A DNA stretch of 63,537 nt, the filler included, from Licmophora abbreviata (Eukaryota), in assembly GCA_900291995.1 (NCBI GenBank). It is 33 parts of 33 records of this genome, joined end to end, with 100 filler letters (N's around TTAATTAATTAA, not from the genome) between each part and the next. Parts side by side here need not be neighbours in the genome. Positions count along the whole stretch, not along the records: positions 47,229 to 49,047 come from OLMU01006487.1; 32 more parts are not named here. The stretch is one strand, 5' to 3'. A program made the position numbers and the translations under genes. The notes under the pieces were generated by a model. That model did not search any database. It had not been told where the DNA came from and was given only the letters and a program-made list of their open reading frames with translations. This document shows, in pieces, positions 5,587 through 58,611 of the stretch (its first letter is position 1; each line of letters opens with the position of its first letter).

Positions 5587-6568
5587 AGAGGTTTCGTACT
5601 GCCGCTGACACAAGAAGGTATGTCTTATATTCTCTTGCTCGTGACCGCGTGCTTGCCTGTGTGATTGTTGTATTAGTCTGCCACGTCGGCTACGAATGTC
5701 TCATCGTCGGCTGTCTTTGTGCACTTTGCCCAGGTCATAGTCTGCTGCATTCGTTTCGACACGAAGCGAGTTTCAATCAAGGTGTGCAAGAAGACAGACA
5801 CCTCCACGAGTTTCAAGATGCATCCAAGGTCCGCTCCTCCGATACTATACATGCATCCATTCTCCACCGACGAAGTTTCCAATGTCCCCCAAGGTTCCCG
5901 AACACATTCAATTCGCTGTCATTGACTGTCGAGCAAAGCAGCCGTCTTGCATCCCAAGGAATTATGAGAGTCGTCCATCACCTTCGAGTTAAGCCTCCTA
6001 TGGCTGTAGAGTACTGGGGTTCTCTACTAACTGTCATCCGTGGCATGAACGTCCCCCTACGATGTGTGATTGGACTCTCTAATTCTGCAAGACGCTCTGT
6101 GGACACTCGCGGCCGTGACATGGTCAAGTTCAGCTTTCCATCTAGGAATACTGGGCATTTCCATTGTTGGCACCAATACTATTTTATCGATGTATGCAGT
6201 CGCGCACTGTTTCGACGGTCGCAACCGCAGCATCACCCACCCCGCCCCGATTCTCAAGTTCAAGTTCTTCGCCTCCATGTCGATTCCGTTTCATGTTCGT
6301 CGTGTCCCATTCCCTTTCGTCCGTGTCCACAAGTCAAGAAGCCATGTGCCTCATGTCGCTTCCAAGTCCAAGATAATCGTCTCGTNNNNNNNNNNNNNNN
6401 NNNNNNNNNNNNNNNNNNNNNNNNNNNNNTTAATTAATTAANNNNNNNNNNNNNNNNNNNNNNNNNNNNNNNNNNNNNNNNNNNNTCGACGCCACGGTGT
6501 ACCCGTACACAATTTGTGTCCCCCCACATAACATCCCTCCATTTCCATCCCATTTCCACCCAAATACC

Positions 6569-10667: not shown

Positions 10668-11197
10668 NNNNNNNNNNNNNNNNNNNNNNNNNNNNNNNNN
10701 NNNNNNNNNNNTTAATTAATTAANNNNNNNNNNNNNNNNNNNNNNNNNNNNNNNNNNNNNNNNNNNNCACCAGTTTGGTACCAGGTACAGTACCGGTATT
10801 ACAGTACTCGTAGTCGTCTTGTGAACAGATGTTCAAAAAGTGAAAGGATGGATGACGACACTAAGCAATCGTCCGAGAGTGATGTTAGGTCGGTGTGGTC
10901 GGTGCGGCTAACGCCGCTTCGGCTAGTCCGTGTTCCCTCGCTTGGCCAAGCAGGGGTAAATAGGTGGGGTGGTCAAAAAGGGAAACCCTATACAGCCCCC
11001 CAGTCGACGTCAGCAGTCTGTCTGCCAGTAGGTCTCGTGTTCATCGCTCGTCTCTCTTGGCGCGCCATATTTTCGAAACAAGCGCGAGTTCGAAAAAATG
11101 CCGAAGGCAAACCGACGAGCAAGCATCGCGACCGCTATTCACTTTCAATTTAGAATTTAGTTCATTCACTCTCGCTTGACCTTCACACCCTACTACG

Positions 11198-12794
11198 ATG
11201 GACCGCGAATGGAGAGTACAAATGCAGGCCTTGGACGAGGAGCGAAGGGCTCCCTGGACCCCCAAAAGCATTATCGTTCCGGCAGAACTCCGCGATGGGA
11301 CGGGGAATAACATTGAGATCAAGTCGATCAATCTTATCGATTACATCGGAGATGACTCTCCCATGAACAAGACGATAAAGACAGATCATTGCGCGAAGCT
11401 CCAAGGGCATGGTGCTCCCATCGTTTTCCCCTCCATTCGAAATTGGGGAGCGGAGTCGCGTGACGAAATAACACGACACTTGGTCCGAGCGTGCGCATCT
11501 GAAGAGGGCTTTGCGTTGGTTTGCAAAGGATGGGAGAGGCAACGCAACCGTGTTGTGTATAAATGTGCGCGAGGAAAGCTTCACCAGGCCCACGACAACA
11601 AGTATGATGAAAAGGCTGGAGAATGGGGGTCCCAAGTCCGACGTACAAAAACAGCACTACCAACATTGACAGAGGACCTATGCGGATTTCATTTCAGCTT
11701 CAGGTTCAACCACGAATGCAGATACTGGTACTTTGTCACCGGAACTGGGTCAAGGGCTCATGAAAATCACATTCAGAAACGGCCTGGGGAGATTCGATCC
11801 AGTTTTGCTCTGATGCGTGACAAAGAGCACAAGCTTGCCAGGTCCACTGTTTCTATCAATGCACCGCCCCAAGCGGTGCAAGCCCTCATGCAAACCCATA
11901 CTGGTCTATCTCTATCTTCCAGACAGATTGAGCACTTAGCAAGAAAGATGCGGGATGGTGACGCTGTCGTTGAATCGGGAAGTAGGGGGCAAACTGCTGC
12001 AGACAAGCTACTCGAATATCTCCGAGGCGACTCGTCAATTAGTTTCGTTGCTGTCTACGACGATGATCCAGAGTCATCTCTACTGTCCGTGAAGAACAAG
12101 GGACGACCCAAACGATCTAATTCAAGAAAGAAGCGCAAGTCACCTGTGAAGCACCATTCGAGTGCAAGCAAGTCCCGGATTTTTGTCGCCGTTCGAGAAT
12201 CTGGTGTCGACGAGGAAGAGCAGCTTGTGCGCAACATTGACACGGCAATCTGGAACGACGAGGTGGAGTCAGCCGAGCAGTATGCCACACGAGTACGCAA
12301 ACAGATGAAACTAGGTAATGGCAAGTTGCTACTTGCGGTAGCTTGGGCTACTGACGACGAACGACGTCTTTTTGGTTGCTTTCCAGAGTTCGTTGCAGGC
12401 GACGTAACTTTGCAAACAAATACGGAGAAGCGTCCACTTTTTCAGTTGGCAGGGAAAACTGGCGCAAACAAGACATTCACTGCACTCAAAGCCTATCTAC
12501 CATCAGAAGGGAAGTGGGTTTTCAACTGGCTTTGGAGTACTGCCCTCCCTCGACTCCATATGCAATCGGCTTTAGATCGGGTCCGACTGTGTCTAACCGA
12601 CGGCGACGAGAAGGAGTATATCCCATTGGAAGATGCAATTGAGAGTGGTGTTCTGTATGGCTGCCAACATGCTCTATGTGTTTGGCACAAGATAAATCGG
12701 GGAATGAAGGCCAAGAAACTATTTCGACCCAGCAATTCGATATTGGGAAAAGCTTACTTTGATGTCCTTGAACGGTGGTTGTGGTCATGGACCG
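11198..12794 (+). mobile_element. Mutator-like (MULE) transposase, 3'-truncated
   Basis: FPEFVAGDVTLQTNTEKRPL (first Asp), LCLTDGD (second Asp), HALCVWH (CxxH); N-terminal C..H.NH WRKY/FAR1-like finger. Confidence 0.85.
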
Positions 12795-26435: not shown

Positions 26436-27502
26436 GAGTGAACCCGATCTCCATCTTTGCTCTTTCCACCTTCACCTTCACGCGCTGGACCATGATTGCG
26501 CACCACGTGTGCCACGGTGGATACGACAAGTGCCACCCACAGAAGGGCCGCTTCAATCGATTCAAGTTTGCGATTGGATCCTTCTGGCGTCGCTTCTGTG
26601 ACTGGCTCGACTGGATGATGCCCGAGGCCTGGAATGTCGAACACAACAACCGTCATCACTACAATTTGTCCGAGATTGATGATCCGGACTTGGTCGAAAA
26701 TAACACGTCCGAACTCCGGGCTTCTTCCGCTCCCATGGTCTTCAAGTATGCCGCCGTTGCCTTCATGATGGCTACTTGGAAGTGGTTCTACTACGCTCCC
26801 AATACCTACAAGGAGCTCAAGCTCGCAAAACTCCGTCGCGAGGGAAGGCCCCTGCCCAAGGGCGTCAACCCGGCCGATGCCATTTCCATCAAGGGCATTA
26901 TGCAGGGAAACAACCCCTTCTATTCCACATGGGAATTGATGACTGTTGTCATTGGGCCCTATCTAGTGATTCACTTCTTCGCCCTCCCGCTTCCTCTCCT
27001 CTTCCTTGGACAATATCTGGGCCTTGAAAGCACTCTCTACTGGAACGCCGTGTGGAACTTGGTCTTTGCCGAAATTCTCACCAACATGCATGCGTTCCTC
27101 GCCATTGTTACCAACCATGCCGGAGACGATATGTACCGCTTCCGCAATGGCTGCCGGCCTTTCTCAGGCTCCTTTTACCTCCGCCAAGTTCTTGCCTCCG
27201 TTGACTTTGCCATGGGAACCGACTTGATTGACTTTATGCACGGATACTTGAACTACCAGATCGAGCATCACTTGTGGCCCAACCTCTCCATGCTGAGCTA
27301 CCAAAAGGCAGCCCCGCAGGTGCGAGAGATCTGCGCCAAGCATGGTGTGCCGTATGTGAAGGAAGGCGTATTTTTGCGACTCAAGAAGACCATCGACATT
27401 ATGGTCGGGTCCGCCAGTATGAAGTGGTTCCCTGAAAAGTACGAGAGTCTGTACTTGGAGAAGGATGCTCTCAAGATGAAGGATTCGCTGACATCAAAAT
27501 AG
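26436..27502 (+). CDS. Membrane fatty acid desaturase, 5'-truncated
   Basis: His boxes HHVCH, HNNRHH and QIEHH. Confidence 0.9.
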
Positions 27503-38286: not shown

Positions 38287-40134
38287 GTCCTCATTGATGT
38301 TGAACAGGTGTGATGCAGCTGGAGTAACAGCCTCTCCAGACATGTCGTCCGGGGCTTCTTCGATGATGGAGTTGACATAGTCTGTCATAATGAACTTCAC
38401 TTTGCCCGGTAGGCTGTAGTCGATGGTCATTCCCAAGTATTCGTGTACGAGTCCACGCTGTACGGTGAGCGGAGCTTCAATGCCGTACTTCGCGTTGAGC
38501 TTCTTCACGATCCATTCCAGCACCGACTGTTTAACGTGAGACAGTTTCAAGTCATCGACATGCCACACGATAGTGCATTGTTCGCCGTCTATAGTCTTGT
38601 TGGCGACGCATGCGTCGTAAGGGTTCAGGGTAAAGCCTAGCTCATCCACAAGGAATCCTGATAGGTTCTTCCAGAACAGTATTGCTCCCTGCAGAGTCCC
38701 ATACAGAGCCTTCTTAAGCTCCACATACAACACTGGCTTGCCACCCTCGTGAGTAAGGTATTTTCGGTATTTCTTTGGGTCTACCCTGGTCAGCAATTCC
38801 GCCATTGGACCTTGTAGTCGCACGTGTACCAGCTCGTCCATATCTGATTGCATAAATGCACCTGGGATGTCGACAGTGACTATCTTTCTCTGCTGTTGAG
38901 AGTCGATGACTGACGTAAGGAATAGTGCCTCGCTACTGACAGTGGGAGAGCTGGTCTCCTCCTTGGATTTATATAGTCTCTGTTTCCGGCCATCAGCACA
39001 TCCCCTGGCTTTGATCCGACCACAACGCTTCCGCTTCAGGTACATAAGGTACTGCAGTGATCGACGTTTCTGTTCGCGGGTGAGGTCCTTCGCATCCCTA
39101 GGTTCAATAGCACGCCGATAGTCAAGCTGTTCCATTTCGGCAACCACTGCATCTGCTCCAGCTTTTCCAAACAGTTTGAGTCCCTTCTTGAGTGACATCT
39201 GCTCCGTCTGGAATAGATATCCGAATGGCTGATCGATTTTTCCATCTAGTCGATATAGATGCGAGAGTGACGTATCTTTCGACTGTAATCCTCGAGTCAT
39301 CTCATTCATCTCGTCTCGATGCCGATGTTGGTAGCTTCTCGGTCTCCTATCGCGTAGGTCACGACCATGGGTCCTTGCTCCGTATCGGTTATCCATTTGT
39401 TCCGAGATATTTCCTCCGTCATGGCCGATTGTGTCTTCAGCGATGCCATTGTCATCGATTGTGTTCTCCGTGGTGTCATCATCATCAGGGTCACTGCCGT
39501 TCACTCCTGCATTTCCGATGCGGATTGCATCATCCACTCCTGTGATTTCACGATTAACTGCATTTCCCACTCCTGTGCTCGCGACTGGTGTCTCGGCCGT
39601 GCGACCTCGCTGTGCGGTGCTATCTTGTGTCTGTGGTGGTGCAATGGTTGCATCTCTGACATTGATTGTATCAGGTCCAGTATTTTGGTTGTTGTACTCA
39701 CGGATGGCCTCTTCCAGGTCGCGTTGTTCCGTATCGTGCTGATTGGTGGGTTGATCTCCTTCTTGATGCTCTTCCGCATCGCTATCATCATTATGATTCT
39801 CATCCGCGGCCCTGTCTGCGTCCTCATCATCTGAGTCCTCGTCATCCAAGTCTTCGGCGGCGTCCTCATCCGCGGCCCTGTCTGCGTCCTCATCATCTGA
39901 GTCCTCGTCATCCAAGTCTTCGGCGGCGTCGTAGTAGTTGTGAGTGCCTGATGGGTTCACTCCTGCGGGCTTCGGCGGTGCAGCCGATGGGCCGTAATTA
40001 CTATCATCATCATCGAAATCATCATCGGAATCATCATCATTATCACTGTCACTGGTAGAGCTGGCATCCGAGGGATCATACGCGGAGTCGTGATCATCGT
40101 CGACATCGTCATCATAGTCAGGAAGCTCGTGACC
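38287..40134 (-). mobile_element. Ty1/copia retrotransposon RT region
   Basis: IKARGCADGRKQ, VDIPGAFMQ, KALYGTLQ, WHVDDLK, EYLGMTI; 66-bp tandem duplication at 39799-39930. Confidence 0.95.
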
Positions 40135-41439: not shown

Positions 41440-42667
41440 AAGCTTTTTGCAAAACATTGAACCTCCATCCGTCGAGCTCCATGTGACCTCAGTGAATACG
41501 ACTACCAGCGTAGTTGTCGAATATCCTGTTGGAACGATCTTTCTACCCTCTGTCATGGTTGATCCCGACAACATCACGATAATTACGTTGCCTAGTCAGG
41601 CTGCGCAAGCTTGGGTTCCGGGCTCCGGCAATACAAACTCAGTCAGAGTTCGAGCAGCCGACGACTTCTTTGTCTACATGATTAATCGCCTTGGCTTTAC
41701 GTCCGATGCTGCCCTTGCATTCCCCGTCGTCGCGCTCAATACCGAATACATTGTCGTGGATTACAATGGCTTTCCAGGGCAAGGTTTAGCGGCTAGTATA
41801 TTTGTTGTAACCGCTGTGTTTGATGGCACTGTGGTGACGATCACTCCGACGAATGACATCTTTGGCCATCGTGCTCTCGATGGTGCCTTTAGCGTGACGC
41901 TGGACTTTGGCGAGTCATACTATGCGCGTGCCACCCTAGGTGGGCCAGTCTCATTGACGGGATCCACCATTGTGGCATCGCAACGTGTCACCGTGACCAA
42001 TGGAGTGGTGTGCACACAAGTTCCCTCGGGTGTTGCGGCTTGCGATCATTTGTTCCAAGTGGCCCAGCCAGTGCAAACCTGGGGCCGATCCATCGCAGTC
42101 GCCAACCTCCCCCAGCGCCCCTCTGGGTCTGTGTACCGTATCGTTGCAGCAGAAGACGACACTTCGGTCACTCAAGATGGCGCCTCACTGGTGACTCTCA
42201 ACAAAGGAGAGTTCTTTGAGACTGCACAACTGCCGGGCAACTACTTACTGGAGGGCGACAAACCAATTTTCGTCGTACAGTTCATGACTGGAAGTGAGTC
42301 GACAGGATCCGGTGGCCTTGGAGACCCGGCTATGGGAAATATGATCCCTACTGATCAATTCCTCAATGAATACACCTTCTCAACTGTCGGTGGTAGCCAA
42401 TTCAGGACCAATTATGTGACCGTTATTGCCGACGACCGGGACGTGGCAATGGGAACCGTGACTTTAGACGGAGTGCCGGTCGCAAGCTCAGAATTTTCTT
42501 CGATTGGGTCCAGTGGGCTTTCAACGGCGACACTTCTCCTTGTAGAAGGCGTACACGCCACGGAGTCCCAAACTGCTGGGCATGGAATCTATGTCATGGG
42601 GTTGAATTCTTTTGACTCCTACCTCTATCCAGGTGGTGCCAAAATTGCGACGTTGACGCCGCCCTAG
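41440..42667 (+). CDS. IgGFc-binding (FCGBP N-terminal) domain protein, 5'-truncated
   Basis: TSDAALAFPVVALNTEY, LTGSTIVAS, CDHLFQVAQPVQTWG, KPIFVVQF, GDPAM..IPTDQF, SYLYPGG. Confidence 0.8.
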
Positions 42668-43372: not shown

Positions 43373-44639
43373 ACTGAATGCGCATGCGCACAAAACTTTA
43401 TTTCAACTGTCGTGTGGGTGGCGGTACAAGTGCCGGCTGATTGCGGCCGTCTTGACGCATCCAAATTGCCTGATCATTGACGAACCTTCATTTCTGGACA
43501 GTGCGTCACTAAAATGGCTGATGGAACAGCTGAATCGCCTGGCGAAAGTTGAACAATGCATGGTTCTGTTGATTTCTCATAAGGAGGCCCTGTTGGAGGC
43601 CCTGTGCGATCGCATCATTCACATCAATTCTGCGAATCAAACATTGACGACGTACAATTGTGGATACGCTGCCTTTCGTGACGTTCTCGAAACAGAAATT
43701 CAGCACACATCCAAGCAGTTGAACGAGACCAAAGACCATGCAGAAATAGCCGACAAGTGCCTGAAAAAGATCCAAGTAGCGTGTAAAAAGCGTGAGGCCA
43801 ATTTTCACAAAATTTCGGAACACCGCTCCATCGACAAACGATTCATCAAAGGAAAGAACAAGGAAGCCAAGCAAAATGCAGACCGATCGGCGGCTTCAAA
43901 ACTGAAAAAGGCGCAGCAAGCCGTCAGAGATGCGGAGGAAATCAAGCACAAGGCCAAGAGAGAACGCGTGAAACCCATACACATTGAAGGCATCCCATCT
44001 TCTCACGGAATCCTAGTCTCGATGGAGAATGTCGGACTCAAGTACGAAGACGATGAAGACTGGGTATTTCAAAACGTGGATACTTCTCTAGAGGCAAATG
44101 ATAGAGTCCTTCTTCAGGGAACCAACGGTTGTGGAAAGACTTCCTTGGTCAAGATGATCCTCGGCGAGTTGGAGCCAACGGAAGGAACCATCCATCGCTC
44201 TATCCAGAACATCCTGTACTTTCCACAAACCGCACTGTACCAGCTACTTCGTCAACATGGCAACGATACTTCCATGGAGTTTCTACAATCTGCCAAGAGC
44301 CTGACGGAAACCAAAGCGAGACACCACTTGGGAAATTTGGGTTTGAACAGGGACCTTGCTCTCCATAAAATTAAGACCCTTTCGGCTGGACAAAGAGTGC
44401 GCGTGTGGCTGGCGCGACAAGTTTTGTTACACCCCAAGCCATCACTGCTCATTTTGGATGAAATGTCGGAAAATGTCGACGTCGAGACTCGAAAGTCCTT
44501 GGAGGAGATGCTAGCTTCATTTCAAGGAGCCGTCTTGGTCATATCTCACGACCCTGATTTCTGCGGCTCTTTTTCCAAAAGCATGACGAAAACTTGGAAG
44601 CTGTGGCATCATGGGCTCCAAGTACAGTTTCAAGAGTAG
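43373..44639 (+). CDS. ABC-F-like ATPase, 5'-truncated
   Basis: IIDEP..LD and ISH; GTNGCGKT, LSAGQ, LLILDE, ISHD; no transmembrane segments. Confidence 0.85.
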
Positions 44640-47228: not shown

Positions 47229-49047
47229 TACGTTGCCTAGCCAGTACTATGAGGCATCGGTCCCGCCTGTCAGGGCGGTGGAGGGGGCGCCGACCAACCC
47301 TCCCATCGGCGGTACGGTGGGGGGAAGCGGCCCGACCGAGTCACGATCCAGTCCCGAACGAAACCCGAATCTGAATCCCGCGTATGCCGTGTACGGCGCA
47401 CTCCCGGTCCGAATCACGGAAGTACTAGCCCGAGCTGGAGCGGCCAACCGTCCACCCCGGGCTACCAGTGGATCGGAAGCTTGCTTGTCCTTTCATGTTA
47501 AAGGCATTTGTAACTCCGATTGTCGTCGCCGAGCAGACCACCGCGCCTATACGGAAGCCGAGGACGCCGCGCTTCTAGCATGGTGCCAGAGGTGGTACAC
47601 GGAGGCTCCTGCCAGCTAGGATGCTGGGCGGGGGGGGGGGGGGCTGCGCATCTTTACGCAGTCCCCTCTGACGCCGCCCCCTGTACGAACCATACCTGTA
47701 TCGACCCCGAACACGAACACACCACGAAGCCGAAAACGCAACCACGTATCGATGCAACAGGAACCCCAGGAGGCCGCGGAACATAACCCATTACGTAAGT
47801 ACATGTTGAGAGATTCTCGTCTTTTAGCTAGCCAAGGGTGGCGATCTTTCGTCACCGAACGCCGCCGACAAGGCGACTTTGGAGCCCTCAACATCAATCA
47901 TCCAGCCCAACCTTTACTCCGGTACTTATCGAAGACCGGAGCCCCGGTGATCTTCACAACGCCGCCCTGGGATCCACATCGAATCCACGCAGCCGCCCTA
48001 CGCGGCCCCCATAAGTCGGCTACTGATCACGCCGACTTCCTACGAAACGAAATGGCCGACATGATCCTCCGCCAACAGTGGGTAGTGCTACCGTATGAGT
48101 CGGTTAAGGCACTACCCGGACTGCGTCTCAGTCCAATCGGTGTAGTCCCCCAACGTGACCGACGACCGCGTACCATCGTGGACTACACTTTCCATGGTGT
48201 CAACGACGACACCCTCCGCCTCGCACCAGCCGAAGCTATGCGATTTGGCCAAGCTTTCCAACGCCTTCTGGTGGCCATCGTGAATGCCGATCCACGACAT
48301 GGCCCGGTACATCTATGCAAAATAGACATCGCCGACGGTTTCTATCGGATTAAGCTACGAGCTGACGATATCCCCAAACTGGGGGTGAGTTTTCCGTCCG
48401 AAGTCGCGGGCGAACACGTGGTGGCGTTCCCTCTCGTGTTGCCGATGGGCTGGGTCAGTAGCCCCCCGTGGTTCTGTGCCGCCACCGAAACCGTGGCCGA
48501 CGTCGCCAACCAATTCATCGACCGAGGAGCCCGGCCGCCGCCACATCATCTCGACCGCCTCGCCGAGACCGTACCCATCATGGAGCCCCTTTCGACTCCC
48601 CAGCGCGACGCTAACCTGGCGGTACCGTTGGAACGTACCTCCCCTCTGCCCACAGCCAAACATCGCCGGCCGTTGGGCATGTTTGAGGTGTACATTGATG
48701 ATTTCTGTGGGGTCGCTCAGGGCAGCCGGAAGCGCCGGCGACGTCTTCGACGCATCCTGTTTCACACGCTAGACCAAGTCTTTCGCCCGTTGGCTCCCCA
48801 AGACCCACCAACTCGCCAAGAGCCCATCTCCGTCAAAAAATTACGAAAAGGCGATGGCCACTGGGCCACGCGCAAGGTGATTCTGGGCTGGCTCCTCGAT
48901 ACTGTGGCGGGCACCCTGGAACTGCCTCCACACCGGCTCGAACGCCTCTGGGAGATTCTTGACTCTGTCCCTGCAGAACAGAAGCGAGTGTCGCTGCGCA
49001 AGTGGCACCAAGTCCTAGGCGAACTCCGTGCCATGGCGCTGGCCATA
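47229..49047 (+). mobile_element. YR/DIRS-like retrotransposon copy A: gag 3' end (TAG 47617-47619) plus RT
   Basis: CLSFHVKGICNSDCRRRADH finger; RGPHKS, SPIGVVPQRDRRPRTIVDYT, KIDIADGFYRI, LPMGWVSSPPWF, YIDDF. Confidence 0.9.
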
Positions 49048-49147
49048 NNNNNNNNNNNNNNNNNNNNNNNNNNNNNNNNNNNNNNNNNNNNTTAATTAAT
49101 TAANNNNNNNNNNNNNNNNNNNNNNNNNNNNNNNNNNNNNNNNNNNN

Positions 49148-50967
49148 ACATGCTTCCACCAAGTCAATGGTGGGGGTGTGCGTGTCCCTACAAAGGCGTC
49201 GATCGACCAGGCCTTGGCGGATCCCACGGTGGCTGTGTTCGACGCTCCAGATCCTGCAGACGCTGCCACAGAAGTCGTGCGCGTACGAAATACCGTGCTA
49301 CTTCCGTTTCGGTATGTAAAACTGTTGCTCGCCAGCCCATTGAGCCCTAGGGCGGCGTGGGAGCGAGTGGCAGGGGCCATCACCACTGACGGAAACGAAG
49401 CCGCATGCGCGCCTGTCCTCGATTGGCTACGGGTCGCTTTGGTCCGGGAACCTGGGGCGCCCGTATCGCGTCTAGGGCGTCTATTGCCTACGGTGCCATT
49501 GGTGCTCCCAGCGCTCATGGAACGCCGCTGGGGACTGGTGACACGAGACTTGCCGGCCCTCGGTGCCGGCGCCACCCTAGCGGCGGGGAACGCCATCGCC
49601 GCAGGACTGAACAACTTGGTTGCGGACAACCGCGCCAGTCGACAGGCGGATCAGGCCGCCCGACTAGCAGACAAGGAAAAGACCCCGACCAAGTATTTCG
49701 GAGCTGTCGGGGTTGCCAAGCTGCTGAGGCTGTGTCAGGTAGCGGATGAAGCCGCTTTGCCTGCGGTGTGGCGCGACCTAGCCAGCTCTCCAAAGAAGCA
49801 AGACATTCTGGTCTTGCAACAAGCCTTCAATTCGATGGCACAGGATCAGTTAAGCTTGCCGGGAAGCGATGTCCCTATTACGCCAGACATCGCATCAAAG
49901 CTGCGTAATCTATCATTCGAGATGACGAACGAGGAGGATCTCAGTACCGGAATCCACTGCTTTACGTTCGGCTACCAAAGCGCGGTGGAACGAGCAGCCG
50001 CCTACGAGCTCGTCGAACGCTATCAACTCATGCAACAAGGTCAAGGAGCGCCGAGTCTCGCGGAAGCCGCGGCCTTCAACCATTCGTCGGTAAGCGGTAA
50101 GCTTCCTCAGACACTGACCGAGAGTAGTATCTGTTTCAACAACACCCGTGTGGCTTTGCACGTCTTGTTGTCGAGTGGTCATCCTGTGGTGGTGGCTTAC
50201 GACACTTTCTGGCGTGCCTGGGGATCGAGTCAAGCCCATCTGCTTCATGTGCGACCGCGCAGCCAGGTCTCGTTGCCGGCCCTAGCGGCACGATGGGTAC
50301 AACTCAGGCTTTCCCTCTGGTTCGCCCAGCAGGCGACCACGAACGCCAATGTGGATCCACCGGAGTTCGTGCGCTTGTTGCAGGACATCCGCCTGCAGAC
50401 AGCATGGGAGCCTACGTTGCCCCCTCAGTACTATGAAGCATCGGTACCACCTGTCACGATGCCGGGGGGGTCAGTTAATCCCCCCATAACTGGCGCGGCG
50501 GCGGGAGCTGGCGCAACTGAGTCACGTTCCAGTCCCGAACGAAACCCGAACCTGAATCCCGCGTACGCGACTTACGGTGCACTCCCCGTACGTATTACGG
50601 AAGTGTTAGCTAGGGCCGGAGCGGCCAATCGGCCGCCCCGAGCTACCAGCGGATCGGAGGCTTGCTTGTCCTTCCATGTGAAGGGCATTTGCAACTCCGA
50701 TTGTCGCCGCCGCGCAGATCACCGCACCTATACGGAAGCAGAGGATGCGGCGCTTCTAGAGTGGTGCCAGAGGTGGTACACGGAGGCGCCCGCCAGCTAG
50801 GATGCTGGCGGGGGGGGACTGCGCATTTTTACGCAGTCCTCCCTGACGCCGCCCCCTGTACGCACCACACTTGTATCGACCCCGAACACGAATCAACCAC
50901 GAAACCGAAAACGAAACCACGTATCGATGCAACAGGAAACCCAGGAGGCCGCGGAACATAACCCACT
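49148..50967 (+). mobile_element. YR/DIRS-like retrotransposon copy B: gag (TAG 50798-50800) plus pol start
   Basis: 50410-50967 aligns by eye with 47229-47790, with many synonymous differences. Confidence 0.88.
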
Positions 50968-54897: not shown

Positions 54898-56703
54898 AGT
54901 AATCGGGTCGACGCCCAACCCAGTGTCTGGATCGCCCTGTTCAGGACAGGAGGAGTTTGTAAACGTTGCGTTTGTGTACCGGATGGGTACGTGGCTCCGC
55001 ATCCTCGGTCCCCACGCACAGAGATTCTGATTGAACTGCGGGCTTCGCGAAAGACGTCTCTCATGTTGGTCACCTTTGACACGTTCCAGGCGCCAAGCGG
55101 CTGATTGAACTCATACGCAGACTGGAACATGTCTCGCAGGCTACGGACCTGTCGGGTGTTCCACTTCTCGATGGGCTGATTGAACTTTCGAGCGCTTCTG
55201 AACATGTTGCGGAAATACCCGCAATTGGAAGTGTCCCAGTCTCCGATTGGCTGATTGAAAGCATTGGCGACCCAGAACATGTTCCTCATGTCATACACTT
55301 TCGAGACGTTCCAGGCGCCGATGGGCTGATTGAATCTGTACGCTTGTTGAAACATTCCAATCATGTCGTAGACGTTGGACACATCCCAGTCCCCAATGGG
55401 ACTGTTGAAGCTTTGTGCTAGAAGGAACATGCCATTCATGTTGGTAACTTTCGATACGTTCCAGACGCCAATGGGTTGATTGAACGACTGAGCCAGGTAG
55501 AACATTTTGTTCATGTTGGTGACTTCGGAGACATCCCATGCTGTGATGTCTTCATTGAACGTAGTTTTCAGCAGAAACAGATAGCTCATGTCTGTCAGAT
55601 TCTTGTTAAAACACCAAGTCTCGATCGGGCCGTACGTGGCCTCGACGATTGGCGACCGATAGTCGTTGATGGCTTCGTCAAGTATTGTGCGGTTGTCAAA
55701 GCAGCGAATCGGTTGAAGCGATGGTACTAGTGATGGTATGCTTGTTGGGAAGAAAGAGGGGTACTGAGAGGGCTGCGTACTAGGTCCAAGAGTGGGTGCC
55801 ATGCTTGCCGTGGGCAACTCACTGAGAGTTCCACTCGGGGATGAGCTAGGGGTAGCCGACGGGGAGTACGAAGGTGCTTTACTCGGCCTTGAGCTAGGCG
55901 CGCCTGACGATGGACTTATCGAATCAGTGGAGGTAGGATGAGTAGATTCCTCGATTGTAGGCGCCAAAGAGGCACGACTCGTCGGTGCATCGCTCAGCGA
56001 TTTGGTGGGCCCGGAGGATGGTACTGACGAGTGCGTGGTTGACGGGCTTTGAGATACCAAAGCTGTAGGCGCCACAGAATCATCTATAGTAGGATGCGGG
56101 CTCGGCATTGTGATAGGACTGAGGGTCGCGTCGGCAACGGGCGTCGCCGAAGGTGGTATTGACGTCGCCGGGGAAGGCGCATCAGTAGGGCTTCCAGCTG
56201 TAGTGGCAACCGAGGACGGTGCAGATGATTGGCTAGCTGGTTGGGTCTTAGATATAGTGGTTGTGGGCGCTGACGAGATAAGGATTGTCGGAGAGGTGCT
56301 TACATCCACGGTGGGACTGGGCCTCGCGTCAACACTCGGGGCAGCACTCGTTGTGGTCGGCCCGCCAGATGGCACATCTGTTGGAATCATTGACGGGAAC
56401 TCAGATCCAGCGTTTACATACGTTGGAGCAGCCGACGGCATTGCATTTCCATTGATTGTGGTACTCGGGGCCAAGGATTGAACGTTGGGAGCAGAAGAGA
56501 CAAGCTTCACTGGAACTGCCGTTGGTGTTCCAAAAGCTTGACTTTGTTCATCATTGATGACAGGAGCGGACGTTGGTGCTTGACTCGTGTTCTGTCCCGG
56601 GCTTATGCTAGGGGATTGACTGAGGCTCGGTGCTGGTGTAATGGCGACAAAATTCGAGCTTGGTTGGGGTTGAAGCGTTGCGGTCATATTGCACATGGAT
56701 GGA
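54898..56703 (-). CDS. Mucin-like Ser/Thr/Pro stalk plus DUF285/BspA-like repeats
   Basis: Repeated FNQPIGxWNVSKVTNMxxMF units; YGPIETW. Confidence 0.88.
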
Positions 56704-56803: not shown

Positions 56804-58611
56804 CCGGATCCTGACGTTCCCCGATACTGGACCCGCCGCGGCCCCAAGCACCTCCGCCGATTCCGCCGCCGCTTCCGTCGCAACATCCACTACAAGCCTC
56901 GCGGACCACCGACAACCTCTTCTCGCCAACTAGCGATCCAAGAACGCCGAGCCCAGAACAACAAAGACGCCTACGCCCTCCTGCAACGACTCGGCCGCTT
57001 CGCGCACGAATCTGACGACCTCTTTCGACGCCCCCGGCCTCCAGCCAACGTCGAGCGCCACCCGGTCAGCAGAGGGAGGAACAACCAACAAGAATGCAGC
57101 TGTCACCCTATGCCCATCGACCCCGACCGGTTGATTGTTACGAATGCTCCAAGTCGCCCCAACGTCGCCCACGCTCCGCCACGGCCACCGGCACGACCTC
57201 CGCTTCGCCCCAACAAGTCCAAGCCCCGTCGCCGTCGACGCACCCAGCAGACCGACCGCCGCTCTCTACCCGCCTTTGTTGCCTATCATGCCTCCGCGAC
57301 GATCCGAAACGTCGCCCACGCCATCCGTTCCAGCCTCGTGGCACGACCAGAGACAGCCCACCACCTCGGGCCCCATCGAAACCACATCGTGTGGGACTCT
57401 GGCGCAAGCATCAGCGTCACACACACGGCCTCCGACTTCACCAGTGACATCGACGCAGCTCCAGAGGGAGCCACTCTACAAGGTGTGGGGAAAAGCGTCT
57501 CCGTCACCGGCACCGGCACCGTCACCTGGAAAATTCCCGACACCTCCGGCAACCTACGAGACATTGAAGTACCGGCCCTCCTCGTCCCCGGAGCAACCCA
57601 ACGTCTCCTCAGCACGTCGTCACTCCTCCAACACTACCCCGACGAAACGATCACCCTCGAACACGGTAGATTGTTGTTAAGTGGCTCCTCTGCGAACGAA
57701 AACCAGCCTCTCCGTCACCCAGTTGCCGCACTCATCGATCCAGCCACGAATCTCCCCATCAGCATCTGCTACGACGCCGACGCTGGCTCCAAGATCAATC
57801 GAGCCTTCAACTCGGCTCTCTCCACCGTGTCCAGACGAAACTCCAACCTAAGCCCAGCCGAAAAGGAACTCCTACGATGGCACTACCGTCTCGGGCACCT
57901 CTCCCAGAAGCAGATCCAGTTCCTCATGCGAACTGGAGTCCTCGCCCACACCGAAGCAGCCCGCCGTCTCCAGACCGCAGCAAGCAAGCTAACCGATCGC
58001 CCTCTCTGCGCCGCCTGCCAGTATGGAAAACAGCGCCAACGACCCTCCCCTGGACTCCGCAGCACCGTCGTCAAGGACCGACACGGTGCCCTCCGCGAAA
58101 AGGACCTCTTCCCAGGGCAGAAAGTCTCGGTTGACCACTTCGTCTGCTCCACGCGAGGCCGTCTTCCCCACACCTATGGCAAAGAAGACACCAAGCTCCA
58201 GTTCTCCGGCGGCGCCATCTTCGTCGACCATGCATCCGGCATGATCTTCGTCAAAGAACAAGTGCATCTGAACACGCATGAGACAATCGAAAGCAAGACA
58301 GCATACGAGAAACACTGCCGCGACTTCGGCGTCACACCACAGACTTACCTCTCTGACAACGGATCCGCTTTCACGTCCGCCGAGTTCAACCGACACCTCG
58401 AAACGTTCGCCCAGCACTCTAAATTCGCCGGAGTCGGAGCCCACCATCACAATGGCATCGCAGAACGAGCCATCCAAACCGTCATGTCGATCGCGCGAAC
58501 CCAAATGCTGCACGCCGCGATTCACTGGCCGGACGTCGCTGACGCTCGGCTCTGGCCTCTGGCAGTCCAGCACTCCGTCAACCTCTACAACCACATGCCC
58601 TCCCCAAGCAC
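56804..58611 (+). mobile_element. Ty1/copia protease-integrase region
   Basis: VWDSGAS, WHYRLGH..CAACQYGK, VSVDHF, SDNG, NGIAERAI. Confidence 0.93.

What the first reader, a model, noticed from the sequence alone, without database searches (positions are those of the whole stretch)
47590..47790. gag-UAG-pol: candidate programmed stop-codon readthrough in a YR retrotransposon (copy A)
Seen: the gag TAG (47617-47619) is followed, in the same frame and with no further stop, by DAGRGGGGLRIFTQSPLT...HVSMQQ and then the RT ORF. Copy B has the same arrangement. The two gag ends differ at many third positions yet encode nearly the same protein, so the shared TAG is unlikely to be random decay. The G-rich spacer differs by exactly 6 nt between copies, preserving frame. 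A GC-rich hairpin (G-run-CTGCG / CATCTTTA / CGCAGTCCCC) lies just 3' of the stop. Established: MuLV makes Gag-Pol by UAG-G readthrough stimulated by a 3' RNA structure, whereas DIRS-type elements are usually described with separate or overlapping ORFs. Inference: this family makes Gag-Pol by readthrough. I do not know of this being described for YR elements, but could not check the literature. Caveats: long G-runs are error-prone in this assembly, and pol has its own ATG at 47752.
Basis: partly seen in the sequence, partly recalled or inferred. Interest (0 to 1): 0.82.

Follow-up and report, generated by a model that had tools for sequence, protein, structure and literature searches.

The report
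Leaky gag stop in diatom retrotransposons
Two fragments of a diatom-type mobile element carry a stop codon between their coat-protein and copying-enzyme genes that looks built to be read through, and dozens of distant relatives keep the same stop and RNA hairpin.

Summary
In both fragments gag ends at TAG, the frame stays open into pol, and a strong hairpin follows. "Copy A" and "copy B" are separate unplaced contigs joined by N linkers, not neighbours.

Relatives decide the matter. Of 79 metagenome loci, 66 hold the gag end upstream of pol. In 66 of 66 gag and pol share a frame, with a single stop between them.
- The stop is TGA in 46 and TAG in 20, never TAA. TAA ends 19 of 37 pol and 21 of 34 ORF3 genes in the same elements.
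- 63 distinct spacers (14,025 nt) hold 0 stops in frame, against 228 and 299 in the other frames.
- No pol AUG is conserved.
- A stem-loop whose GGC/GCC base starts 6 nt after the stop is kept, while its inner stem sequences differ between lineages.
- ORF3 folds like Cre recombinase.

Best reading, at 0.75: programmed stop-codon readthrough makes Gag-Pol. No experiment supports it yet. In the fungal element Tca2, a stop plus a 3' structure did not suffice in a reporter assay. I found no report of readthrough in tyrosine-recombinase retrotransposons, but key subscription papers were not searchable.

The parts
47230..47616 (+). Copy A: C-terminal 129 codons of gag. The contig starts inside gag. 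It carries a Cys/His-rich motif followed by ...LLAWCQRWYTEAPAS.
   Evidence: Translation. tblastn and blastp homology to gag ORFs of relatives. dN/dS against copy B is 0.05.
47617..47619 (+). Copy A: gag stop codon TAG, followed by G. This is the proposed readthrough site.
   Evidence: Relatives have a single TAG or TGA at the homologous place in 66 of 66 loci.
47620..47625 (+). Copy A: 6-nt spacer (GATGCT) between the stop and the base of the stem-loop.
   Evidence: With the stop as +1..+3, G at +10 in 57 of 61, G at +11 in 61 of 61, C at +12 in 52 of 61 distinct junctions.
47626..47679 (+). Copy A: predicted stem-loop. Base GGGCGG/CCGCCC, inner stem G-run+CTGCG / CGCAGTCCCC, loop CATCTTTA.
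   Evidence: strand folding gives -45.5 kcal/mol, z -4.54, 0 of 200 shuffles as good. The G-run is 6 nt shorter in two metagenome contigs.
47620..47781 (+). Copy A: in-frame linker between the stop and the start of the conserved pol alignment. It has no stop and is Pro/Thr/Ser-rich.
   Evidence: Family-wide, 0 in-frame stops in 14,025 nt. Pooled pN/pS is 0.54.
47752..47754 (+). Copy A: first in-frame ATG after the stop, not conserved in the family.
   Evidence: In 27 of 63 distinct relatives the first in-frame ATG lies at or beyond the start of the conserved pol region.
47782..49047 (+). Copy A: pol, reverse-transcriptase part, cut off by the contig end.
   Evidence: Pfam RVT_1 at E 2.9e-4, below the gathering score. 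430 homologues found, with pol of about 800-850 aa. Alignment A1.
49148..50797 (+). Copy B: gag, 550 codons. The contig starts inside gag.
   Evidence: 32 gag homologues, of which 21 reach the C-terminus and all end 0-8 residues after the alignment.
50798..50800 (+). Copy B: gag stop codon TAG, followed by G.
50801..50806 (+). Copy B: 6-nt spacer (GATGCT).
50807..50850 (+). Copy B: predicted stem-loop. Base GGCG/CGCC, inner stem GGGGGGGACTGCG / CGCAGTCCTCCC, loop CATTTTTA.
   Evidence: strand folding gives -39.0 kcal/mol, z -5.34, 0 of 200 shuffles as good. The G.U pair of copy A is an A-U pair here.
50801..50967 (+). Copy B: in-frame linker after the stop, open to the contig end.

Best explanation
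The two contigs are fragments of a tyrosine-recombinase (YR) retrotransposon family common in diatom-type genomes. Its layout is gag, one stop codon, pol (RT plus an RNase H-like region) in the same frame, then a YR gene that overlaps the pol end in the -1 frame.

Most ribosomes stop at the gag UAG or UGA and make Gag. A minority decode the stop with a near-cognate tRNA and continue through a Pro/Ser/Thr-rich linker into pol, giving a Gag-Pol fusion. The stimulator is a stem-loop whose GGC...GCC base begins 6 nt after the stop. At that distance it would sit at the ribosome's mRNA entrance while the stop is in the A site.

Shown by sequence comparison: the conserved frame, the single non-UAA stop, the open linker, the lack of a conserved AUG and the conserved structure. 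Inferred: the readthrough event itself, its efficiency and the role of the stem-loop.
For: 1. Frame and stop. Of 79 related metagenome loci, 66 hold the gag C-terminus upstream of pol. In 66 of 66 the two are in one frame. In 65 exactly one stop lies between the start of the gag match and pol; L057 has one more, inside gag. Three more loci fit on inspection: L033, L047, L054.

2. Stop identity. The stop is TGA in 46 loci, TAG in 20 and TAA in 0. Among distinct sequences TAA is 0 of 58 at the gag stop, against 19 of 37 at the pol stop and 21 of 34 at the ORF3 stop of the same elements. Fisher p is 4e-14, not corrected for shared ancestry. On a quick pol tree of 65 rows, TAG/TGA changed at least 7 times, of which at least 4 are forced by well-supported branches. 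UAG is followed by G in 20 of 20 distinct junctions.

3. The spacer is coding. 63 distinct spacers total 14,025 nt, with 0 stops in the pol frame against 228 and 299 in the other frames. Pooled pN/pS is 0.54 over 17 sister pairs, and 16 of the 17 are below 1.

4. No conserved start. The first in-frame ATG lies 0-585 nt after the stop. In 27 of 63 it lies at or beyond the start of the conserved pol region, or is preceded by a stop.

5. Structure.
- Stop-N6-GGC is nearly invariant.
- Mean MFE z-score of +1..+90 is -1.77, with 37% below -2. Gag and pol control windows give -0.09 to -0.47.
- The fourth base pair forms a canonical pair in 38 of 61, against 23.0 +/- 2.7 in permutations (0 of 5000 reach it). 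It occurs as G-C, U-A, A-U, C-G and G.U.
- On alignment A3 the covariation score exceeds all 500 shuffles and all slid controls.
- Inner stems differ completely in sequence between lineages.
- The window's own hairpins fold with z -4.5 and -5.3.

6. Gag proteins in the protein database end 0-8 residues after the conserved ...WC....Y.PE motif in 21 of the 21 that reach it. Only 1 weak hit came up among proteins long enough to be fusions.

7. The pattern matches known readthrough signals. Passages of PMC3159437 describe extended stem-loops 7-12 nt after the stop. [quoted passage not shown]
Against: - There is no direct evidence of translation across the stop. No RNA run holds the sequence, and there are no ribosome or peptide data.
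- In the Candida element Tca2 a gag UGA with a 3' pseudoknot did not direct readthrough in a yeast reporter (abstract of PMC2194720). Stop plus structure is therefore not proof.
- The simplest structure statistic is weak. Positions +7..+9 form a stacked helix in 48 of 61 junctions, but also in 147 of 305 shuffles and 70 of 203 pol windows.
- RNAalifold recovered only the 3-bp base, because the inner stems are out of register.
- 15 of 61 junctions have an A.A mismatch at the fourth base-pair position.
- The loci are related to each other, so the counts are not independent events.
- One locus, L067, has 604 open codons upstream of pol with no gag similarity.
- One protein, P0107, has Trp where the stop should be.
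- UGA is followed by A, C, U or G with no single favoured context.
Confidence: 0.75

Rival explanations
1. Pol is made on its own, by internal initiation, termination-reinitiation or a subgenomic or spliced transcript. On this reading the shared frame is a historical accident, and the hairpin serves something else, such as packaging, dimerisation or a junction promoter as in Tca2.
For: Copy A has an in-frame ATG 132 nt after the stop. 36 of 63 relatives have an in-frame ATG before the conserved pol region. The Tca2 junction held a minor promoter, and its flanks did not give readthrough in yeast (abstract of PMC2194720).
Against: This does not explain 66 of 66 shared frames across linkers of 117-438 nt. 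It does not explain 0 in-frame stops in 14,025 nt of linker, the absence of TAA, or the fixed 6-nt distance of the structure from the stop. The ATG position is not conserved, and in 27 of 63 it falls inside or beyond conserved pol sequence. No conserved GT lies in the 9 nt before the stop.
Confidence: 0.13
2. The stop is bypassed, but not by near-cognate decoding. One option is RNA editing of UAG or UGA to UGG (Trp), as at the amber/W site of hepatitis delta virus (recalled, from no call). Another is some other non-canonical bypass, as left open for Tca2.
For: UAG and UGA, but not UAA, are one A-to-G change from UGG, which would also explain the lack of TAA. P0107 carries Trp exactly at the stop position. 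That could be a reverse-transcribed edited copy. A double-stranded structure lies nearby.
Against: The stop lies outside the conserved helix, 6 nt upstream of it. Adenosine deaminases acting on mRNA are, to my knowledge, an animal feature; this is recalled and was not tested. Only 1 Trp variant was seen, against 68 junctions with stops. The 6-nt spacing fits a ribosome-linked role (passages of PMC3159437).
Confidence: 0.05
3. The arrangement has no function. The copies are decaying, and the TAG is a chance nonsense mutation shared by descent.
For: Both window copies are fragments on unplaced contigs, and the G-run length is uncertain.
Against: Strong purifying selection acts on both sides of the stop: dN/dS is 0.05 in gag between A and B, and pooled pN/pS in pol is 0.18. 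The stop is kept across a tree with branch lengths up to about 1 change per site. Database gag proteins all end at the same place.
Confidence: 0.02

Closest known systems
Gammaretrovirus (MuLV) Gag-Pol readthrough
   Same: Gag and pol share a frame and are separated by one UAG followed by G, with a required RNA structure a few nt downstream (passages of PMC3159437; abstract of PMC4178896 in the listing). The window copies have UAG-G.
   Different: MuLV uses a compact pseudoknot 8 nt after the stop. Here the structure is a stem-loop with an internal loop, starting after 6 nt, with apical parts spanning 32 to about 100 nt. No pseudoknot was looked for. Two thirds of the family use UGA. The element has a tyrosine recombinase, and no protease or DDE integrase was detected.
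Extended 3' stem-loop readthrough stimulators of alphaviruses, coltivirus, furo-, tobra- and pecluviruses, and Drosophila hdc/kelch (Firth et al. 2011, PMC3159437)
   Same: A UGA or UAG stop, a spacer of 7-12 nt, a stem of 10-14 bp with asymmetric bulges, loops of variable and sometimes long length, support from compensatory changes, and reduced synonymous variation (passages). Here the spacer is 6 nt, the loops are variable, covariation is present, and synonymous divergence in the linker is lower (pS 0.34 against 0.52-0.55).
   Different: The host and the genetic element differ: a eukaryotic YR retrotransposon rather than an RNA virus or a cellular gene. The invariant GGC/GCC clamp is specific to this family. 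No Rfam family matches.
Tca2 (Ty1/copia) of Candida albicans
   Same: A retrotransposon with gag-UGA-pol in one frame and a predicted 3' structure. Pol is made from the gag-pol RNA (abstract of PMC2194720).
   Different: In Tca2 the flanking sequence did not direct readthrough in a yeast reporter, and the mechanism remains unknown. Here there is no experiment at all, but the comparative support is much broader.
YR retrotransposons with split direct repeats (Ngaro, PAT-like; order DIRS)
   Same: Gag, RT/RNase H and a tyrosine recombinase, flanked by split direct repeats of the A1...B1 A2 B2 kind. This is seen in L012. ORF3 has a Cre-like fold. The layouts are as described in passages of PMC7192593, PMC3783388 and PMC8547959.
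   Different: A term search (readthrough, read-through, stop codon, frameshift and similar) of PMC3266345, PMC3783388, PMC8547959, PMC6681497 and PMC7192593 found no mention of readthrough. The passages it returned describe separate or overlapping, frameshifted ORFs. Placement within Ngaro as against PAT-like was not tested by phylogeny.

Membership tests
Tyrosine-recombinase retrotransposons (order DIRS in the broad sense) | Encodes a reverse transcriptase with an RNase H region | tested here: met
   Pfam RVT_1 hits are weak, at E 2.9e-4 to 2e-5 and below the gathering score. The alignment of 48 pol proteins shows a conserved Y/F-x-DD core and a downstream D..E..D..D-type region. The motif reading is by eye.
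Tyrosine-recombinase retrotransposons (order DIRS in the broad sense) | Encodes a tyrosine recombinase in place of a DDE integrase | tested here: met
   ORF3 of relatives (about 390-400 aa) was modelled at pLDDT 81.5. The nine matches with E up to 0.001 and rank 10 are Cre recombinase chains (best E 4.6e-4, probability 1.0, target TM 0.62-0.70), followed by other tyrosine recombinases. Pfam and a PDB sequence profile gave no hit. No rve or protease family appeared in the pol scans. ORF3 is not present in the window itself.
Tyrosine-recombinase retrotransposons (order DIRS in the broad sense) | Integrated, repeated element of eukaryotic genomes | tested here: met
   L072 lies in a 45-kb contig next to an EXOSC1/CSL4 exosome gene. 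One homologue is annotated in the diatom Mayamaea pseudoterrestris on a 441-kb contig.
DIRS1-like elements in the strict sense | Inverted terminal repeats with an internal complementary region | tested here: not met
   L012 shows split direct repeats (1-127 = 5961-6087 = 6424-6550; 5639-5938 = 6102-6401) and no inverted repeats. Only 3 loci were examined.
DIRS1-like and PAT-like elements | Methyltransferase-like domain after RNase H | tested here: inconclusive
   No Pfam family other than RVT_1 appeared in the 9 pol proteins scanned. A divergent domain could be missed.
Ngaro-like elements | Split direct repeats, gag, RT/RH and YR, without a methyltransferase | tested here: inconclusive
   The layout fits. 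No phylogeny against reference Ngaro or PAT elements was made.
Programmed stop-codon readthrough with a 3' RNA structure | [quoted passage not shown] | tested here: met
   66 of 66 loci, plus both window copies. TAA is 0 of 68.
Programmed stop-codon readthrough with a 3' RNA structure | A conserved RNA structure about 6-12 nt 3' of the stop, supported by covariation | tested here: met
   Stop-N6-GGC, MFE z-scores and covariation at the fourth base pair. The inner stems could not be put in a common register.
Programmed stop-codon readthrough with a 3' RNA structure | A measurable readthrough product that depends on the signal | not testable with these tools
   No RNA run is listed. There are no ribosome profiling or proteome data.

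The most novel reading that the evidence does not exclude
A whole, widespread clade of tyrosine-recombinase retrotransposons in diatom-type genomes makes Gag-Pol by programmed readthrough. The signal is a previously undescribed modular one: UAG or UGA, a 6-nt spacer, a GGC...GCC clamp and a freely variable inner hairpin. This would be the first recoding signal known for YR retroelements and for diatoms. It would also be a natural, tunable readthrough cassette for diatom genetics.
Probability: 0.5. Interest if true: 0.75.

Novelty: new variant of a known kind. Interest (0 to 1): 0.66.

Why it matters
How YR retrotransposons set the ratio of Gag to Pol is barely studied. The papers I could search describe separate or overlapping ORFs and never mention readthrough. 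A conserved leaky stop with its own RNA signal would extend a retrovirus-style expression strategy to a different order of retroelements, in a major group of algae.

It would also give annotators a simple rule for these elements: gag and pol form one readthrough unit. At present gene callers split them, as shown by the varied pol starts.

The family offers dozens of natural variants of one readthrough stimulator, with the same clamp and different stems and loops. These could be tested side by side to learn what makes such a structure work. The comparative case is strong, but the mechanism still needs one reporter experiment.

Tried and rejected
- Whole-genome search for further copies: no genome is held for this window.
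- Other pieces of the family in the window: blastn and tblastx found only A and B.
- Expression: no RNA holder is listed for copy A. The runs laid are DNA contigs that cover only parts of the stretch.
- ORF3 by sequence: no Pfam hit at E up to 0.05 and no PDB sequence-profile hit at E up to 1. Only the fold search identified it.
- RNAalifold on 21 short hairpins predicted only the 3-bp base.
- Choosing the 3' partner by lowest constrained energy was a flawed method, because it favoured long spans. It gave 32 of 61 canonical fourth pairs. I replaced it with pair probabilities computed with the tested position masked.
- The statistic "+7..+9 paired in the MFE" barely separates real from shuffled sequence.
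- Rfam gave no match at E up to 1 over 47229-50967.
- Earlier notes of this scan hold nothing for this genome or sequence.
- Splicing-out of the stop was considered. No conserved GT lies in the 9 nt before the stop, and a donor further upstream would remove conserved gag codons.
- Selenocysteine was considered and rejected, because UAG is used as well as UGA.
- A careful maximum-likelihood tree did not finish in time, so the quick tree is used.
- Pseudoknot potential was not examined.

Full report
**What the window is.** The 63.5-kb window is not a continuous piece of chromosome. It consists of 33 short contigs of about 1.0-2.1 kb, mostly in order of falling length, joined by N44-TTAATTAATTAA-N44 linkers. 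They are independent fragments that overlap by 562 nt at about 83% identity. No other contig in the window belongs to the family.

**The observation.**
- In A, gag ends at TAG 47617-47619. The same frame runs open to the contig end through DAGRGGGGLRIF... into a reverse transcriptase.
- In B, a 550-codon gag ends at TAG 50798-50800. The frame stays open for the 167 nt left on the contig.
- Between A and B, the last 100 gag codons have dS 0.79 and dN 0.04. The 52 aligned linker codons have dS 0.19 and dN 0.06.
- The G-rich stretch differs by exactly 6 nt. Two contigs from marine metagenome runs that bridge it, one like A and one like B, both have the form 6 nt shorter than copy A. So G14 in copy A may be an error or a variant, but the frame is kept either way.
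- The hairpins fold at -45.5 kcal/mol (z -4.5) and -39.0 kcal/mol (z -5.3).

All points of the observation are confirmed.

**Relatives.** Copy A read with TAG as Gln (P0001) found 430 proteins. Most are pol proteins of about 800-850 aa from metagenomes, and one is from the diatom Mayamaea pseudoterrestris. The protein atlas placed the nearest clusters in Bacillariophyta. An alignment of 48 pol proteins (A1) retrieved 79 metagenome loci, many on contigs of about 6 kb.

Their layout is a gag frame of about 700 codons, a stop, pol of 820-930 codons, and an ORF3 of about 390-400 codons. ORF3 had no Pfam or PDB-sequence match. Its model (pLDDT 81.5) matched Cre recombinase and other tyrosine recombinases. 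L012 shows split direct repeats. L072 sits beside an exosome-subunit gene in a 45-kb contig. The family is therefore a YR retrotransposon with a Ngaro- or PAT-like layout, not DIRS1-like in the strict sense.

**The junction across the family.**
- Frame and stop: 66 of the 79 loci hold the gag C-terminus upstream of pol. In all 66 it is in the pol frame. Only one stop lies between the start of the gag match and pol, except for one extra stop inside the gag of L057.
- The other 13 loci: 5 have no upstream sequence. L033, L047 and L054 fit the pattern. L010, L056, L063 and L066 are open to the contig start. L067 is an exception, with 604 open codons that do not resemble gag.
- Stop identity: TGA in 46 loci, TAG in 20, TAA in none. 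In the same elements TAA is the commonest stop of pol (19 of 37) and of ORF3 (21 of 34). It is 0 of 58 at distinct gag stops. Fisher p is 4e-14, not corrected for shared ancestry.
- Switching: on a quick pol tree, TAG and TGA replaced each other at least 7 times, at least 4 of them on well-supported branches.
- Linker: it is 117-438 nt long. Over 63 distinct sequences (14,025 nt) it has 0 in-frame stops, against 228 and 299 in the other frames. It evolves with pN/pS 0.54.
- Start codon: the first in-frame ATG lies anywhere from 0 to 585 nt after the stop. In 27 of 63 it lies at or beyond the start of conserved pol sequence.
- Gag ends: database gag proteins that reach the C-terminus (21 of 32) all end 0-8 residues after the conserved motif. 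A search among proteins long enough to be fusions gave one weak hit.
- One short Logan protein, P0107, reads through with Trp exactly at the stop position.

**The RNA signal.** With the stop as +1..+3, G stands at +10 in 57 of 61 distinct junctions, G at +11 in 61 of 61, and C at +12 in 52 of 61. This GGC pairs with a downstream GCC. Between them lie an internal loop and an inner stem whose sequence differs completely between lineages, with spans from 32 to about 100 nt.
- Windows +1..+90 have a mean MFE z of -1.77, against -0.09 to -0.47 for gag and pol control windows.
- With the 3' partner chosen by pair probability and the tested position masked, the fourth pair is canonical in 38 of 61. 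Permutations give 23.0 +/- 2.7, and 0 of 5000 reach the observed value. The pair occurs as G-C, U-A, A-U, C-G and G.U.
- On a 21-sequence alignment the covariation score exceeds all 500 shuffles and all slid controls.
- In L016 and L017 the third pair changed from C-G to U-A.
- The third position of the GGC glycine codon hardly varies, which points to a constraint on the RNA rather than on the protein. Synonymous divergence in the linker is lower than in gag or pol.

Weaker points: the simple "paired in the MFE" statistic is not specific, RNAalifold found only the base helix, and 15 of 61 junctions have an A.A mismatch at the fourth position. Rfam has no matching family.

**Interpretation.** A single conserved UAG or UGA, avoidance of UAA, an in-frame open linker with no fixed AUG, and a structure at a fixed short distance together form the signature of programmed readthrough. 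Firth et al. describe extended stem-loops 7-12 nt after UGA or UAG in several viruses and two fly genes (passages of PMC3159437). [quoted passage not shown]

The main caution is Tca2. There a gag UGA plus a 3' pseudoknot did not give readthrough in a yeast reporter, and a cryptic promoter confused the assay (abstract of PMC2194720). I put readthrough at 0.75, independent pol expression at 0.13, another bypass such as editing to UGG at 0.05, and decay at 0.02.

**Novelty.** I ran eight full-text searches. I also ran term look-ups in PMC3266345, PMC3783388, PMC8547959, PMC3537659, PMC6681497, PMC7192593, PMC5009743, PMC12440569, PMC13517186 and a Chaetoceros preprint. None gave a mention of stop-codon readthrough in YR retrotransposons. 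The founding papers on these elements are in subscription journals and were not searchable, so an earlier remark cannot be excluded. An unchecked note of this scan proposes a different recoding event, a frame change at the gag stop, in a Naegleria DIRS1-like element. I rate the finding as a new variant of a known kind.

Noticed in passing
whole window: The window is a chain of 33 short unplaced contigs joined by N44-TTAATTAATTAA-N44 linkers, which carry stops in all six frames. Neighbouring features are not neighbours in the genome.
   Followed up: yes
L072:6983-8179 and 33 other loci: The recombinase gene (ORF3) overlaps the 3' end of pol by 337-559 nt and is in the -1 frame relative to pol in 31 of 34 distinct loci. 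Its first ATG is not conserved. How it is expressed is unknown; frameshifting, reinitiation and a separate RNA are all possible.
   Followed up: partly
P0107 (Logan protein, 483 aa): One relative reads from gag into pol without a stop. It has Trp exactly at the stop position, followed by two codons and the Gly of the GGC clamp. This may be a mutated copy, an intermediate between TAG and TGA, or a copy of an edited RNA.
   Followed up: partly
L067:202-2013: One locus has 604 open codons in frame upstream of pol. They do not resemble gag and are rich in short KCL..SP.SP repeats and Lys/Ala runs.
   Followed up: partly
window 47629-47642: The G-run of copy A (14 G) is 6 nt longer than in copy B and in two metagenome contigs that bridge it. 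This is either a homopolymer error or a real in-frame variant.
   Followed up: partly
window 47795-47827: A 33-nt stretch, GTAAGT...TTTTAG, looks like a very short intron. Its length is a multiple of 3 and it is open in frame, so it is probably chance.
   Followed up: no
L072:8203-8480: Three tandem copies of a 93-nt unit lie just downstream of the recombinase gene.
   Followed up: no
window 11180-12793, 38287-40134, 56804-58609: Other contigs hold other mobile elements: a MULE transposase (just below the Pfam cut-off), a Copia-type reverse transcriptase (RVT_2) and a Copia gag-pre-integrase domain.
   Followed up: no
window 26438-27499, 41441-42664, 43374-44636, 54900-56702: Host-type genes lie on other contigs: a fatty acid desaturase, an IgGFc-binding-like protein, an ABC transporter ATPase and a DUF285 repeat protein.
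   Followed up: no
L009, L012, L020, L036, L042, L061, L065: Several contigs of about 6 kb begin and end inside gag or repeat their first bases at the end. The element was therefore assembled as a circle or a tandem, as expected for a multi-copy element with split direct repeats.
   Followed up: partly
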